This document shows positions 44,124-46,259 of a DNA stretch of 64,000 nt, piece after piece. Source of the stretch: Escherichia phage vB_Eco_slurp01; the sequence record LT603033. The stretch is one strand, 5' to 3'. Position numbers and translations under genes: made by a program. Positions within the stretch are counted from its first letter, which is position 1; every line of letters begins with the position of its first letter. The notes under the pieces were generated by a model that was given only the letters and a program-made list of their open reading frames with translations, was not told where the DNA came from and did no database searches.

Positions 44124-44315
44124 TATAGCTAGGGGAAGCTCCGTAGTGGAAGCATTATACAGGCTTTAACATATGTTGCATATGTTAAAATTCAGCCTGG
44201 ACAAATGCGATCACTAGGATTCTCCCCAGGCTAAACCCCGTAATCATAGGTAGTCATAAGTAATCATATATAAACATTTATATGAGCACCGTAGAATCAC
44301 AGAATGATTATATAT

Positions 44316-44510
44316 GATTCAGTACTGATTAGTATAGACAAGATTGCTCAAGAATGCACGGAAATGTGTGTGAATGATTCAGTACTGATTAGTATAGACA
44401 AGATTGCTCAAGAATGCACGGAAATGTGTGTGAATGATTCAGTACTGATTAGTATAGACAAGATTGCTCAAGAATGCACGGAAATGTGTGTGAATGATTC
44501 AGTACTGATA
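44316..44510. repeat. perfect tandem direct repeat, 60 bp x about 3.25
   Basis: GATTCAGTACTGATTAGTATAGACAAGATTGCTCAAGAATGCACGGAAATGTGTGTGAAT repeated head to tail. Confidence 0.9.
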
Positions 44511-45299
44511 TGCCACTAAGTAGGCAGAGGAAGTCTGCCGTACTTTGTAGTTTCCAAGCTCCTTTTCCATTTTGCAAATTACATCAAATGTAATCAAAAG
44601 TAATCACGCAATGATTAGTACTGAATTATTACTTTCACCTTAATTACAATTACCCTTTTACCCTTCGGGGTAAAATTCAATTACCCCTTGAGGCTCCAGC
44701 AAAAAGTTGGTTAGTACTCCATCCTAAATCTCGATCCTAAAAATTTTGGAGTACCTATGAAATAAAAGTTGGATCTTCGAAAGTTGAAATTTACGTTGGG
44801 ACGTTTATGATTTGTGGGATATAATGATGTTTGTAGTCGGGTAGTTCTCAAGAATATCAGTACTGAATAATGAAAGAAAGCTATTGACATTATGATTCAG
44901 TACTGTATAATGTTCTACATAGCTTCAAGGGGTGATGAGTTGCTGCGAACAATTCATTTACTCTACCTCCTGTCGTGAGACAGTACAGAAAAGATAGTTC
45001 CTCCTGTGGTGGTACATCTTTTTGAACCTCATATGAAAATCGTAATAACAGTACTGATATTAACAGAATGGTGTCAGTACTGATTTTAATCTAAAGCATT
45101 ATACCACCAGCTTGTGCTGGTGGATTCCCTCTAACAGTATTCAGTACTACATGATGGTCTTCATCCTCCTAGGGTAACATAGTGAGGGCTATGATGGCAG
45201 TACTGAATACTCCCTTTCAAAAGATAGATCTATGGTATAGTACTGACGGATTTTGGGTGTAGTTACCCTGGATGGATTTTGGGCGTAGATATGTCTAGC

Positions 45300-45440
45300 C
45301 CTCCAGAAGTCTGGAAGTAAAGATGGCTATCCATCTAGACGGCTAAACGGCTAGATTTCTGGATGGCTGGATGGCTAGACGTTTGGACGGCTAAACGGCT
45401 AGATGGTTACACGTCTGGAAGTATAGACGGCTAAATCAAA
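45300..45440. repeat. iteron-like short direct repeats
   Basis: ACGGCTAAACGGCTAGAT x2 plus GGCTAGAC/GGATGGCT/TCTGGAAGTA variants clustered in about 140 bp. Confidence 0.6.
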
Positions 45441-46060
45441 ATTTTATTTTGTTTTTCCAATAGTTCCCCTACCGCGTGGGGATAGTTTCCCCGCAGTATC
45501 TGGAGTTAGATTTTTCTGAATCTGGAATCATTATCTTATAAACTGGGGGCAATGTCAACGACCTGGACGGATATTTTTAAAAATTTTTTCAGTACTGAAT
45601 TTTGGGCGTAACTATGCACCCGGTGGGCTTGAGTCTTTCTCGACTTGATGGAACTATTATACAGTACTGGAAAAATAAAGCAATACCCTGGATGAAAAAA
45701 GTTTTAATTAATTTGCTTGCCATCCTGGGCCGGACTATGGTACTATAATTCAGTACTGAGAAAGTGCGTTAACCTGCTAGGGTGCGGGAGTGTATCCTTT
45801 TTTTATATCTTGAATTTTGGACGGATCTTCCCACCCCCTGGGGTATCCGCTTTCTCGCGTCTATGTAGTAATTATACGCTTTTTCAGGATCAAGTCAATA
45901 CCTAAAAACAAAATAATTGAAAATAATTTAACGCGTTTAAACGGCCCGTAAAGCCCTGGAATGATTGGAATGGTGCAAATGTATAGCTTGGGTGTATTAA
46001 TGCGTTAGAATGCGTCTGAGGCCGTTTTACGGGGTGTAGTAGTGATTTGGTGGATTGATT

Positions 46061-46205
46061 CAGTACTGAATAATAGTACTCCTATATAGAAAGATAGTTC
46101 CCCTGGATGGTTGCAGTACTGAATAATAGTACTCCTATATAGAAAGATAGTTCCCCTGGATGGTTGCAGTACTGAATAATAGTTCCCCTATATAGAAAGA
46201 AAACT
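46061..46205. repeat. tandem direct repeat, about 53 bp x about 2.7
   Basis: CAGTACTGAATAATAGTACTCCTATATAGAAAGATAGTTCCCCTGGATGGTTG repeated. Confidence 0.85.
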
Positions 46206-46231
46206 ATTTTAAAAGTATTTGTAGAAAGTAC

Positions 46232-46259
46232 TTGCAAACTATGTTTAACGGCGTATAAT
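46232..46259 (+). promoter_or_regulatory. sigma70-like early promoter
   Basis: TTGCAA, 16 bp spacer, TATAAT, then GTTTTACATC and 5'-UTR hairpin GCGGGAA-CAC-TTCCCGC. Confidence 0.6.

What the first reader, a model, noticed from the sequence alone, without database searches (positions are those of the whole stretch)
44124..46257. 2.1-kb non-coding island with perfect tandem repeats and iteron-like repeats: candidate replication origin, packaging site or ncRNA locus
In an otherwise gene-dense genome this stretch has no convincing ORF. It holds a perfect 60-bp x 3.25 tandem repeat (44316..44510), clustered short direct repeats ACGGCTAAACGGCTAGAT (45300..45440), a roughly 53-bp x 2.7 tandem repeat (46061..46205), multiple inverted repeats (for example 44150..44245 and 45105..45124) and very dense CAGTACTGA motifs. 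Iteron arrays in an AT-rich non-coding region fit a protein-binding replication origin. T4 oriE carries iterons and lies in the general neighbourhood of denV in T4, but that positional analogy is only suggestive. The perfect repeats imply recent expansion or active maintenance.
Basis: partly seen in the sequence, partly recalled or inferred. Interest (0 to 1): 0.7.

Follow-up and report, generated by a model that had tools for sequence, protein, structure and literature searches.

The report
Phage chromosome end with host-repressor array
This gene-free stretch is where the packaged chromosome of a giant E. coli phage begins: it holds the cut site at the edge of a ~20-kb terminal repeat, an untranslated leader with the first early promoters, and a run of 14-16 sites that look like binding sites for the host methionine repressor MetJ.

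Summary
The window comes from an Asteriusvirus, a PBECO4/121Q/G17-like jumbo coliphage. The island and its repeats are real, but it is not AT-rich and it runs to 46314.

- **What it is.** The island straddles the left boundary of the ~20-kb direct terminal repeat (DTR). Termini published or deposited for relatives (fEgEco12, vB_Ec-M-J, G17) map to one nucleotide, window 44518|44519, 9 bp after the 60-bp tandem array.
- **Cut-site motif.** Read from outside inward, all six DTR boundaries in three genera end in (G/A)CTA. This fits staggered nicks followed by strand-displacement copying.
- **Leader.** The DTR side (44519-46314) is an untranslated leader, about 95% conserved. It holds the chromosome's first perfect sigma-70 promoter.
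- **Tandem repeats.** Both perfect repeats vary in copy number between isolates.
- **"Iterons".** They are 16 head-to-tail 8-bp units. Fourteen in a row pass the published MetJ metbox matrix (103 bits; a functional site needs 12.6). The same array sits near the ends of unrelated T5-like and T7-like phages.

An origin or ncRNA role is not excluded. MetJ binding is inferred, not shown.

The parts
44124..44518 (.). Unique-side half of the junction. In virion DNA this lies just before the right copy of the terminal repeat.
   Evidence: The G17 and fEgEco12 DTR boundaries map to 44518|44519. This side is variable between isolates except for one invariant ~100-bp block.
44160..44199 (+). Long hairpin or cruciform: CAGGCT-TTAACATATG-ttg-CATATGTTAA-aattc-AGCCTG.
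   Evidence: The DNA fold of 44140-44250 has z -5.0. Three allelic inner stems keep pairing (CATATG/CATATG, CAATT/AATTG, CATCT/AGATG), but 4 of 15 relatives lack the left arm.
44183..44282 (.). Invariant unique-side block. It includes three 10-bp phased GTAATCATAg repeats (44240-44269) and a GGCTAAA word at 44229. Candidate recognition element for the end-generating machinery.
   Evidence: 97-98% identical over 44199-44278 in 14 relatives while both neighbours vary. 10-bp repeat family D10. GGCTARA site.
44314..44509 (.). Perfect 60-bp x 3.3 tandem repeat. Each unit carries one CAGTACTG. Strain-specific variable-number repeat that ends 9 bp before the cut.
   Evidence: TRF score 392, 100% matches. 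Mostly gaps in relatives; G17 has ~1.25 copies of a 50-bp version.
44515..44548 (.). Left physical terminus of the packaged chromosome (cut between 44518 and 44519: ...GCCACTA|AGTAGGCAGAGG...) lying in a terminal palindrome.
   Evidence: fEgEco12 (PhageTerm plus restriction digests, PMC13070987) starts at window 44519. The G17 20,668-bp exact DTR ends at the same place. The vB_Ec-M-J right-repeat start is the same motif. BF17, CRJP21, ELP-22 and E9.1 records start there. The junction is conserved in 14 of 15 loci. Hairpin z -2.7; fENko-Kae01 also has a hairpin starting at +1.
44583..44606 (.). DTR-side 10-bp phased repeats ATCAAATGTA ATCAAAAGTA ATCA, the same family as 44243-44276.
   Evidence: family D10. 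vB_Ec-M-J has one extra unit.
44713..44755 (.). Conserved inverted repeat AGTACTCC...GGAGTACC enclosing two ATCCTAAA(T/A) units.
   Evidence: 93% identical to fENko-Kae01/Munch positions 86-128, although those genomes share only ~29% ANI (ANI from PMC13070987). TRF period 13.
44884..44911 (+). First promoter of the chromosome: perfect sigma-70 consensus TTGACA-16-TATAAT with CAGTACTG in the spacer, 366 bp from the end, reading inward.
   Evidence: 12/12 match. A promoter-like site sits at an equivalent position in fENko-Kae01 and CBB, read by eye from the sequences.
45049..45124 (+). Two strong hairpins: a 14-bp stem made by two CAGTACTG copies followed by ATTTTAAT, then CCACCAGC-ttgt-GCTGGTGG.
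   Evidence: RNA fold z -5.6. Terminator-like. G17 annotators called the second one a terminator. 81% conserved in fENko-Kae01.
45289..45432 (.). Array of 8-bp head-to-tail units (consensus AGACGGCT). These are 14 consecutive (16 with one tolerated miss) metbox-like sites, a putative super-operator for host MetJ.
   Evidence: Scored with the published matrix (PMC3228920): 14 boxes, 102.8 bits (45321-45432), or 16 boxes, 120 bits. The next-best chain in the window is 3 boxes; 200 simulations give at most 5. 88-100% identical in Asteriusvirus records. Homologous arrays occur in CBB, Vibrio Pontus, Aeromonas AhSzq-1 and PGT2.
45434..45498 (.). 25-bp A/T tract followed by a conserved hairpin TACCGCG-TGGGGA-tagt-TTCCCC-GCAGTA.
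   Evidence: The inner stem covaries across genera: GGGGA/TCCCC (window), CGGAATA/TATTCCG (fENko-Kae01), CTGG/CCAG (CBB). Fold z -3.7 on the minus strand.
45530..45558 (-). Minus-strand sigma-70-like promoter (TTGACA-17-GATAAT) pointing back toward the hairpin, the A/T tract and the array.
   Evidence: 11/12 match. The same hexamers are present in fENko-Kae01 (sequence).
45717..45805 (+). Weak promoter (TTGCCA-18-TACTAT, TG) followed within ~30 nt by a terminator-like hairpin plus T7 run. Possible ~50-nt transcript.
   Evidence: fold z only -1.4.
45818..45898 (.). Most widely conserved block of the leader. It overlaps a minus-strand promoter (TTGACT-16-TATAAT, 45871-45898).
   Evidence: 90-93% identical over 52-59 nt in Munch, 7t3, SE_PL, Kaldavass and fENko-Kae01. 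Collinear hits in RaK2, K64-1 and Muenster. Promoter 11/12.
46061..46200 (.). 53-bp x 2.6 tandem repeat. Each unit carries CAGTACTGAATAAT and CTGGATGG. Variable-number repeat.
   Evidence: TRF 97% matches. 0-3 copies in relatives.
46227..46314 (+). Promoter of the first DTR gene (AGTACTTGCAA-16-TATAAT) and its 5' UTR hairpin. The gene starts at 46315.
   Evidence: The promoter family occurs 8 times on the + strand of the DTR. UTR hairpin z -3.5. The phrog_7352 match starts at residue 18 of the long ORF.

Best explanation
The island is the junction between the unique part of the genome and the ~20-kb DTR of an Asteriusvirus.

**Shown through relatives**
- Packaged chromosomes begin at window 44519 (AGTAGGCAGAGG...).
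- They end about 19.7 kb further right, roughly 218 bp beyond the window.

**Inferred: how the ends are made**
- In the replicating concatemer the repeat is present once.
- A site-specific nuclease nicks the top strand after ...(G/A)CTA at 44518. It nicks the bottom strand at an inverted copy of the same short motif at the other boundary.
- Extension of the two 3' ends with strand displacement duplicates the repeat.
- Conserved elements on both sides of the cut probably provide recognition. These are the invariant 100-bp block with phased GTAATCA repeats, the terminal palindrome, and the second GTAATCA set.

**The DTR side (44519-46314)** is a 1.8-kb untranslated leader.
- Shown: it carries the chromosome's first perfect sigma-70 promoter and the promoter of the first of many small early-type genes. 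All of these read inward.
- Inferred: its conserved modules are protein-binding sites. The most prominent is an array of 14-16 tandem metboxes that most likely binds the host SAM-dependent repressor MetJ.

**The two perfect tandem repeats** are recent, strain-specific expansions of units that carry the CAGTACTG palindrome. They are not conserved functional arrays.
For: **Identity of the genome**
- The island is 89-97% identical in about 36 Asteriusvirus genomes.

**Position of the terminus**
- G17 carries an exact 20,668-bp DTR. Its inner boundary aligns to 44518|44519.
- fEgEco12 termini were set by PhageTerm and restriction digests. Its first 60 nt equal window 44519 onward.
- vB_Ec-M-J has a published DTR of 21,525 bp. 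That places its right-repeat start on the same motif.
- The BF17, CRJP21, ELP-22 and E9.1 records start at that nucleotide.
- Sharanji's PhageTerm DTR is 20,668 bp.
- G17 and fEgEco12 also agree at the other boundary.

**Cut-site motif, read outside to inside**
- Asteriusvirus: GCCACTA|AG and GTCGCTA|AG.
- fENko-Kae01: TCCGCTA|TA and GTGGCTA|AG.
- CBB: TCCGCTA|TA and CTCGCTA|AG.
- Staggered nicks with 3' extension are the textbook route to DTRs (PMC5557969).

**Leader**
- 44519-46040 is 88-99% identical across 14 relatives, except one ~74% stretch at 44919-44958. That is at least as high as the adjacent coding sequence.
- Its blocks are collinear with the 1.3-1.4-kb leaders of fENko-Kae01, Munch and CBB.
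- The DTR part of the window has 22 plus-strand promoters matching at least 11/12, ten of them perfect. The 44.5-kb unique part has 13 in total.

**Array**.

**Tandem repeats vary in copy number**.
Against: - No reads or end-sequencing exist for this isolate. The terminus is transferred from relatives by sequence identity.
- The shared cut motif is only 3-4 bases. Same-side boundaries in different genera are homologous, so the independent comparisons are few.
- CMSTMSU, a low-quality record, lacks the conserved outside flank.
- No terminase, nickase or small-subunit gene was examined.
- Which elements are recognition sites is inference.
- MetJ binding is untested. fENko-Kae01 and Munch carry different repeats at that position. 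One array-bearing record is from a Xanthomonas phage, and MetJ is not expected in that host (PMC3228920).
- The GC-skew sign change at ~44 kb would also fit an origin.
Confidence: 0.8

Rival explanations
1. Replication origin. The array binds an initiator, the adjacent 25-bp A/T tract melts, and the leftward promoter at 45558-45530 supplies an R-loop primer, as at T4 oriF/oriG or the T7 primary origin.
For: - GC skew switches from about -0.2 to +0.1 at ~44 kb although genes stay on the + strand.
- The array, the A/T tract and a covarying hairpin lie next to each other.
- A conserved minus-strand promoter points into them.
Against: - The units are 8-bp, head to tail, and match metboxes. They are not helically phased 17-22-bp iterons.
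- No DnaA boxes. The region is not AT-rich.
- All neighbouring genes are of unknown function, with no initiator recognised.
- The same array lies in the terminal regions of T5-like phages, and T5 origins are reported near mid-genome.
- denV is 27 kb away.
Confidence: 0.2
2. Cluster of small non-coding RNAs. The leader is transcribed from its own promoters on both strands into short structured RNAs that act on host or phage targets. This does not exclude the terminus role.
For: - A perfect promoter at 44884 has no ORF downstream for 1.4 kb.
- A promoter-terminator pair sits at 45717-45805.
- Minus-strand promoters lie at 45558 and 45898.
- Structured segments fold with z -3.5 to -5.6.
- The 45818-45878 block is 90-93% conserved in phages that share ~29% ANI.
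Against: - No Rfam family, even at E<5.
- Conserved stems mostly keep their sequence rather than covary, which fits DNA sites equally well.
- No transcript data exist for any relative.
Confidence: 0.2
3. The 8-bp array is the loading site of a phage-encoded protein rather than of host MetJ. Candidates are the small terminase subunit, a nickase partner or a ribbon-helix-helix protein. In that case the array is the true pac element.
For: - The unit GGCTA|AAC / GGCTA|GAC resembles the cut motif GCTA|AG.
- GGCTARA occurs 8 times in the island out of 14 in the window, including 44229 near the cut. GGCTAAAG lies 18 bp inside the right end.
- The array's distance from the terminus is conserved: 771-914 here, 685-804 in CBB.
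- All carriers appear to be DTR phages.
Against: - The carriers belong to unrelated lineages (Demerecviridae, Autographiviridae, Rak2-like jumbo phages), which are unlikely to share one specificity factor.
- No phage in 50,697 records encodes a detectable MetJ homologue.
- Hosts of 88 of 89 carrier records fall in the orders that have MetJ.
Confidence: 0.25
4. T5-type injection-stop region. The DTR is delivered first, entry pauses at the repeat-rich junction, and DTR-encoded early proteins then license entry of the rest.
For: - Like T5 Repeat Region 3, this is a >1-kb untranslated, repeat- and palindrome-rich region that straddles a DTR boundary.
- The DTR is packed with host-type promoters and small genes.
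- The array is shared with the equivalent region of T5-like Vibrio and Aeromonas phages, where it sits beside DnaA boxes.
Against: - No DnaA boxes here.
- DTR genes read away from the island. Under this model the island would enter last, after genes entering in antisense order.
- Nothing is known about which end enters first.
Confidence: 0.1

Closest known systems
Left end of phage T7/T3 (terminal repeat, short-repeat arrays, A1-A3 early promoters, ~0.9-kb leader before gene 0.3). Recalled from Dunn & Studier 1983; not tested here.
   Same: - Fixed chromosome end with a direct repeat.
- An untranslated leader with arrays of short repeats, including CCTAAA-like words (44717-44741).
- Strong host-RNAP promoters reading inward to small early genes.
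- DTR made by staggered nicks plus extension (PMC5557969).
   Different: - The repeat is ~20 kb, not 160 bp, and contains ~50 genes.
- The leader is twice as long.
- It contains a metbox-like array and a genome-wide palindrome.
- No sequence homology to T7 was tested.
Phage T5 Repeat Region 3 / injection stop signal (Davison, bioRxiv 10.1101/866236)
   Same: - A large untranslated region full of direct repeats, inverted repeats and palindromes.
- It straddles a boundary of a long DTR and is more conserved than the neighbouring genes.
- T5-like Vibrio and Aeromonas phages carry the same 8-bp array there.
   Different: - No DnaA boxes.
- The island sits at the boundary that the DTR genes read away from.
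- Two-step DNA transfer is unknown for these phages.
- T5 itself was not among the BLAST hits.
MetJ operators of the gammaproteobacterial methionine regulon (tandem 8-bp metboxes, AGACGTCT)
   Same: - Head-to-tail 8-bp units.
- Every one of 14 consecutive units passes the published matrix cut-off.
- The pattern of degeneracy is the same (GGAT..., AAAC..., AGAT...).
- The hosts have MetJ.
   Different: - 14-28 boxes, against at least two adjacent boxes required for repression and the 2-5 I recall for natural operators.
- Position 6 is usually G, not T.
- The array is not upstream of a methionine gene but in a phage chromosome-end leader.
- Binding is untested.
T4 oriE / iteron-type origins
   Same: A cluster of short direct repeats in a non-coding stretch next to an A/T tract.
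   Different: - The 8-bp period is not typical of iterons.
- The region is GC-enriched.
- No RepE-like gene was recognised and there is no synteny; denV is 27 kb away.

Membership tests
Fixed-end chromosome with long exact direct terminal repeat (T5/SPO1/T7 'DTR' packaging class) | Virion DNA has unique, non-permuted ends | not testable with these tools
   No reads exist for this isolate. The feature was shown for relatives by others: fEgEco12 by PhageTerm plus restriction digests, Sharanji by PhageTerm, G17 by coverage.
Fixed-end chromosome with long exact direct terminal repeat (T5/SPO1/T7 'DTR' packaging class) | Identical sequence at both ends of the packaged genome | tested here: met
   G17 record: 1-20668 equals 350150-370817 at 100% identity.
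Fixed-end chromosome with long exact direct terminal repeat (T5/SPO1/T7 'DTR' packaging class) | The repeat boundary (terminus) lies in the feature under study | tested here: met
   The G17, fEgEco12 and vB_Ec-M-J boundaries and four record starts all map to window 44518|44519.
Fixed-end chromosome with long exact direct terminal repeat (T5/SPO1/T7 'DTR' packaging class) | Ends made by sequence-specific staggered nicks | tested here: inconclusive
   A shared (G/A)CTA motif lies in inverted orientation at all six boundaries of three genera. This fits the model, but the motif is short and no enzyme data exist.
Iteron-type replication origin | Repeats of ~17-22 bp in helical phase that bind a cognate initiator | tested here: not met
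   The units are 8 bp, head to tail.
Iteron-type replication origin | AT-rich region / unwinding element | tested here: inconclusive
   The island as a whole is GC-enriched, but a 25-bp A/T tract (45434-45458) abuts the array.
Iteron-type replication origin | Initiator gene or DnaA boxes nearby | tested here: not met
   No TTWTNCACA in the island. Flanking genes match only PHROGs of unknown function.
T5 injection stop signal region | Untranslated repeat- and palindrome-rich region straddling a long-DTR boundary | tested here: met
   description of T5.
T5 injection stop signal region | Paired DnaA boxes | tested here: not met
T5 injection stop signal region | Two-step DNA transfer | not testable with these tools
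   This needs infection experiments.
MetJ operator (tandem metboxes) | Two or more adjacent 8-bp boxes, each >= 1/4 of the consensus score and >= the consensus score in total (criteria of PMC3228920) | tested here: met
   14 adjacent boxes, 102.8 bits against a 12.58-bit threshold. Only 1.3-1.5% of 8-mers pass the single-box cut.
MetJ operator (tandem metboxes) | Located in the promoter of a methionine-regulon gene | tested here: not met
   It lies in a phage non-coding leader with no methionine-related gene nearby.
MetJ operator (tandem metboxes) | The host encodes MetJ | tested here: met
   The hosts of 88 of 89 array-bearing records belong to Enterobacterales, Vibrionales or Aeromonadales. 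MetJ exists only in these orders plus Pasteurellales and Alteromonadales. The exception is Xanthomonas phage XbC2.
MetJ operator (tandem metboxes) | SAM-dependent MetJ binding | not testable with these tools
   This needs EMSA, footprinting or ChIP.
Known structured RNA family | Match to an Rfam covariance model | tested here: not met
   No gathering-score hits. Only three chance-level hits at E 0.4-4.

The most novel reading that the evidence does not exclude
The 8-bp array is a MetJ "super-operator". It would be a cis element shared by the chromosome-end leaders of unrelated DTR phages that infect bacteria of the orders that have MetJ: Rak2-like jumbo myoviruses, T5-like Demerecviridae of Vibrio and Aeromonas, and T7-like Ermolevavirus.

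It would load 9-28 dimers of the host's SAM-sensing methionine repressor onto the chromosome-end region. Two outcomes are possible:
- **Sponge.** The array titrates MetJ as genomes multiply and so derepresses methionine and SAM supply.
- **Gate.** The array acts as a SAM-gated roadblock or anchor at the chromosome end, parallel to the DnaA boxes proposed for the T5 injection stop signal.
Probability: 0.35. Interest if true: 0.85.

Novelty: new variant of a known kind. Interest (0 to 1): 0.6.

Why it matters
- **Annotation.** About 40 published genomes leave this 2-kb gap blank or fill it with spurious ORFs. It now has a concrete identity: the chromosome end and early leader of the Rak2-like jumbo phages.
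- **End formation.** The short motif in inverted orientation at both boundaries of a 20-kb repeat, conserved in three genera, makes the mechanism directly testable by a nicking assay on a junction fragment. How such long repeats are duplicated is poorly understood.
- **Host factor.** If the metbox reading holds, phages from three unrelated lineages carry by far the longest MetJ site arrays known, placed near their DNA ends. That would link phage infection to the host's SAM and methionine sensor. It would also give the still unexplained T5-type terminal repeat regions a second candidate host factor besides DnaA.

Tried and rejected
- **tRNA and Rfam scans:** nothing.
- **Coding potential.** Island ORFs have no significant PHROG match, and four of the six checked are frame-shifted or stopped in most or many relatives. 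The 44-codon TTG ORF at 45817-45951 stays open in 14 of 15 relatives. At ~95% identity that is not evidence for coding.
- **DnaA boxes:** none in the island.
- **IMG/VR exact search** for the terminal 21-mer returned only 121Q.
- **BLAST of the array against 5,426 E. coli genomes:** no match. This is uninformative, because operator sites are too short for that database size.
- **Literature searches** for CAGTACTG, GGCTAGA, metbox plus phage, and for promoters or non-coding regions in Asteriusvirus papers found nothing relevant.
- **CAGTACTG as LexA half-sites.** Two copies 18 bp apart would be needed, and the spacings I checked by eye are 26-40 bp. Rejected.
- **CAGTACTG as a simple promoter element.** Only a minority of sites (~12 of 63) sit in TTGACA...TATAAT contexts, and the rest lie inside genes in all three codon phases.
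- **Fur boxes.** The repeats that replace the array in fENko-Kae01/Munch include one 16/19 match, but equally good matches occur elsewhere in that AT-rich DNA. Left as a weak lead.
- **GTAATCA** is not over-represented window-wide: 18 found against 14.9 expected. Only its phased clustering beside the cut is notable.
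Full report

Mostly yes.
- Tandem Repeats Finder reports a perfect 60-bp x 3.3 array at 44314-44509 and a 53-bp x 2.6 array at 46061-46200. It also reports 8/16/24/32/48-bp periodicities at 45334-45433.
- The repeat finder and folding confirm the inverted repeats.
- CAGTACTG occurs 63 times in the window against 0.9 expected. 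Fifteen copies lie in the island.
- There are no tRNAs and no Rfam hits.
- The island ORFs have no significant PHROG match. Four of the six checked are broken in most or many relatives.
- The flanking ORFs match PHROGs strongly. The first downstream gene really starts at 46315, so the gene-free stretch is 44124-46314.

One descriptive claim is wrong. The island is GC-enriched, at 0.36-0.46 against 0.28-0.35 in the upstream flank.

**2. Where the window comes from**

The island is 89-97% identical to about 36 genomes of the genus Asteriusvirus. These are PBECO4, 121Q, G17, phAPEC6 and similar jumbo coliphages of ~350 kb. Careful annotations (G17, phAPEC6, 121Q) leave the region empty, while automatic ones fill it with small ORFs that disagree with each other. 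None of the papers on these phages discusses the region.

**3. The key result: the chromosome end lies inside the island**

In records of 366-384 kb the island sits about 20 kb from an end. This pointed to the boundary of a DTR.
- The G17 record carries an exact 20,668-bp repeat (1-20668 equals 350150-370817). Its inner boundary aligns to window 44518|44519.
- fEgEco12 termini were determined by PhageTerm and confirmed by restriction digests (PMC13070987). The genome begins AGTAGGCAGAGGAAGTCTGCC, which is window 44519 exactly.
- vB_Ec-M-J has a published repeat length of 21,525 bp. That puts its right-repeat start on the same motif.
- The BF17, CRJP21, ELP-22 and E9.1 records start at the same nucleotide.
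- Sharanji's PhageTerm repeat is also 20,668 bp.
- The junction GATAT(G/C)(C/T)CACTA|AGTAGGCAGAGGAAGTCTGCCGTACT is conserved in 14 of 15 loci examined.

In window orientation, packaged DNA therefore starts at 44519. The repeat runs rightward through the rest of the window. Its other boundary (...GGGCGGGTAACCT|TAGCGACTTCG, identical in G17 and fEgEco12) projects to about 218 bp beyond position 64000.

**4. The cut sites**

I compared both boundaries in three genera:
- Asteriusvirus.
- The Klebsiella/Salmonella phages fENko-Kae01 and Munch. fENko-Kae01 has PhageTerm termini, and both records start at the same nucleotide.
- Pectobacterium phage CBB, whose ends were set by coverage.

Read from outside the packaged genome inward, the six boundaries are:

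| Genus / phage | Left boundary | Right boundary |
|---|---|---|
| Asteriusvirus | GCCACTA\|AGTAGG | GTCGCTA\|AGGTTA |
| fENko-Kae01 | TCCGCTA\|TATCTT | GTGGCTA\|AGGCAT |
| CBB | TCCGCTA\|TATCCG | CTCGCTA\|AGCGTT |

- All six end in CTA, five of them in GCTA. Four continue with AG.
- The same short asymmetric word thus lies in inverted orientation at the two edges of a ~20-kb repeat.
- That is what the standard model for DTR formation predicts: nicks on opposite strands at the two boundaries, then 3' extension with strand displacement (PMC5557969).
- In Asteriusvirus and fENko-Kae01 the left cut lies at the base of a palindrome capable of forming a hairpin. The sequences differ but the architecture is the same.

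This part is inference from sequence. The motif is short, and same-side boundaries in different genera are homologous rather than independent.

**5. Anatomy around the cut**

A 15-genome alignment shows three zones.
- **Unique side.** This is a patchwork. A hairpin at 44160-44199 has three co-varying alleles but is missing its left arm in four phages. An invariant ~100-bp block (44183-44282) ends in three 10-bp phased GTAATCATA repeats. A hypervariable stretch follows (44279-44500), and here this isolate has the 60-bp tandem array.
- **Repeat side.** This begins with the palindrome. A second set of phased GTAATCAAAA repeats follows at 44583-44606.
- **The two tandem repeats.** In the relatives, identity at the two perfect tandem repeats collapses into gaps. 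The 53-bp unit occurs 0-3 times among isolates, and G17 has ~1.25 copies of a 50-bp version of the 60-bp unit. The perfect repeats are therefore recent, dispensable expansions.

Their position next to the boundary fits a recombination-prone edge between repeated and unique DNA. That last point is inference.

**6. The leader**

- From 44519 to about 46040 the sequence is 88-99% identical in all relatives, apart from one ~74% stretch at 44919-44958. That is at least as conserved as the following genes, which are 88-92% identical.
- fENko-Kae01 and Munch (1.29 kb) and CBB (1.43 kb) also start with a gene-free leader. It contains the same short blocks in the same order.
- RaK2, K64-1 and Muenster share part of it. 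In Muenster that part lies at the same distance from a PhageTerm-predicted end.
- The leader holds the first perfect sigma-70 consensus promoter of the chromosome (44884-44911, 366 bp from the end) and the promoter of the first gene (46232-46259).
- The repeat region as a whole is an early-type region. It has 22 plus-strand promoters matching at least 11 of 12 positions, ten of them perfect, in 19.5 kb. The 44.5-kb unique part has 13. It also has a recurrent AGTACTTGCAA promoter family.
- The leader also contains two near-consensus minus-strand promoters (45558-45530 and 45898-45871), several strong hairpins (z down to -5.6), and one hairpin whose inner stem covaries across three genera.

**7. 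The "iterons"**

The 45300-45440 repeats are 16 head-to-tail 8-bp units with consensus AGACGGCT. A distant BLAST gave an unexpected result. The same kind of array occurs in 89 phage records:

| Lineage | Examples |
|---|---|
| Jumbo relatives | CBB, GAP32, Serratia BF, Erwinia SNUABM phages, Yersinia fHe-Yen9 |
| T5-like Demerecviridae of Vibrio, Aeromonas and Providencia | Pontus, AhSzq-1, PSTCR5 |
| 42-kb Autographiviridae | PGT2, phiKT, KPV811 |

In about 22 of 35 listed non-Asteriusvirus records the array lies within 1 kb of a record end. In Pontus and AhSzq-1 it sits next to DnaA boxes, as in the T5 injection-stop region.

Tandem 8-bp units are the hallmark of MetJ operators. I scored the array with the published metbox information matrix (Augustus & Spicer 2011, PMC3228920).
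- The window array is a chain of 14 consecutive boxes above the single-box cut-off, totalling 102.8 bits. It reaches 16 boxes and 120 bits if one miss is tolerated. The paper's threshold for a functional site is 12.58 bits.
- The next-best chain in the whole window has 3 boxes. Two hundred simulated 64-kb sequences gave at most 5.
- Only 1.3-1.5% of 8-mers pass the cut-off.
- Other arrays give 16 boxes (Pontus), 28 boxes and 221 bits (AhSzq-1), 9 (PGT2), 13 (CBB) and 14 (G17).

MetJ exists only in Enterobacterales, Pasteurellales, Vibrionales, Aeromonadales and Alteromonadales. Hosts of 88 of the 89 records fall in these orders. No phage in 50,697 records encodes a MetJ homologue. If a MetJ-type protein binds the array, it is therefore the host's.

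Caveats:
- Because the array is a tandem repeat, the independent evidence is the unit's match (P about 1e-3) plus the 8-bp period and the host range.
- Position 6 is usually G rather than T.
- fENko-Kae01 and Munch carry unrelated repeats at this position.
- One carrier is a Xanthomonas phage that I could not inspect.
- The unit also resembles the cut motif (GGCTA|A), so a phage-encoded packaging factor is a serious rival.

I found no publication on metboxes in phage genomes in the held library.

**8. Rivals**

- **Origin in the centre of the leader.** The array, A/T tract, covarying hairpin and inward-facing promoter, together with the GC-skew switch at ~44 kb, keep this open. It fails most defining features of iteron origins.
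- **Small RNAs.** These are plausible but there are no data.
- **T5-like two-step entry.** This is conceivable, but it lacks DnaA boxes and the gene orientation is awkward.

None of these conflicts with the terminus assignment.

**9. Novelty and verdict**

The termini of a few relatives are published, and DTR-end leaders are known from T7 and T5. The kind of feature is therefore known. Four points are new:
- the assignment of this conserved 2-kb gap to the chromosome end;
- the inverted cut motif shared by three genera;
- the collinear leader architecture across Rak2-like phages;
- the metbox-like super-array shared with unrelated DTR phages.

Confidence in the terminus and leader identity is about 0.8. 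Confidence that MetJ binds the array is about 0.45. Confidence that such binding matters for infection is about 0.35.

Noticed in passing
whole window (e.g. 130, 14733, 44320, 55275, 62897): AGTACT is 13-fold over-represented (284 found, ~22 expected). The next palindromic hexamer reaches only 2.1-fold. CAGTACTG is the single most frequent 8-mer in the 64 kb (63 copies). It occurs in all three codon phases inside genes and in the spacer of about a dozen sigma-70-like promoters. The leaders of fENko-Kae01/Munch and CBB are also rich in AGTACT. No explanation was found.
   Followed up: partly
23691-39443, minus strand: A run of about 14 tandem paralogous genes (~300-430 aa) on the minus strand. 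The three scanned with Pfam have RCC1-like beta-propeller repeats. This block accounts for the negative GC skew over 24-39 kb.
   Followed up: partly
39450-44123: About 20 tandem ~60-aa genes on the + strand; the three scanned belong to one family (phrog_11711). They have strongly negative GC skew (-0.2) and high AT skew (+0.2). The skew flips sign exactly at the DTR boundary although the gene strand does not change.
   Followed up: partly
16625-17059 (+): Homologue of T4 endonuclease V (DenV): 66% identity over 131 aa to the T4 sequence as I recalled it. It lies 27 kb from the island, so it gives no positional support for a T4 oriE analogy.
   Followed up: yes
46216-46312: The promoter and 5' UTR hairpin of the first DTR gene are 82-95% identical over 40-95 nt to sequences in ~140-150-kb coliphages that I take to be rV5-like. 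This suggests exchange of early promoter-gene cassettes between unrelated phages.
   Followed up: no
47858-47886 and 49394-49422, minus strand: Two near-consensus extended -10 promoters (TTGACA-17-CATAAT with TG) carry CAGTACTG in the spacer. They point against the + strand early genes. Together with 45558 and 45898 they form a small family of leftward promoters with similar downstream sequence (TAATTACTACATA...).
   Followed up: no
50168-50189 / 50894-50915; 57200-57227 / 62736-62763 / 53592-53619: Identical or near-identical terminator-like hairpins recur in the DTR. One type (AAAGGGATTGACTCCGGTCAGTCCCTTT) overlaps a TTGACT-17-TATTAT promoter. These look like repeated terminator-promoter cassettes between early genes.
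   Followed up: no
L022 (fENko-Kae01) 690-800; L021 (Munch) same: At the position of the metbox array these phages carry different repeats (GAGAATGGTTCTCA, AAGAATAGTTCTCA). One 19-mer, GAGAATAATAATGATTATC, matches the Fur-box consensus at 16/19. Equally good matches occur elsewhere in the locus, so this is only a weak hint that another host repressor site replaces MetJ sites.
   Followed up: partly
L030 (Vibrio phage Pontus) 1320-1400; L031 (Aeromonas phage AhSzq-1) 3425-3445: Consensus DnaA boxes (TGTGGATAA) lie 100-200 bp from the metbox-like arrays in these T5-like phages. In these two phages binding sites for two host proteins therefore sit side by side, in what may correspond to the T5 injection-stop region; the DTR boundaries of these phages were not mapped.
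   Followed up: partly
45268, 45359, 45367, 45688, 46103, 46156: The word CTGGATG(G) recurs: CTGGAWG is found 26 times in the window against 8 expected, and 8 copies are in the island. As isolated GGATGGnT 8-mers, the two I scored by hand just pass the single-metbox cut-off. They could be outlying weak boxes.
   Followed up: no
OP292654.1 (Xanthomonas phage XbC2) 647-756: A jumbo Xanthomonas phage has a 71%-identical match to the array 650 bp from its record start. Xanthomonas is outside the orders known to have MetJ.
   Followed up: no
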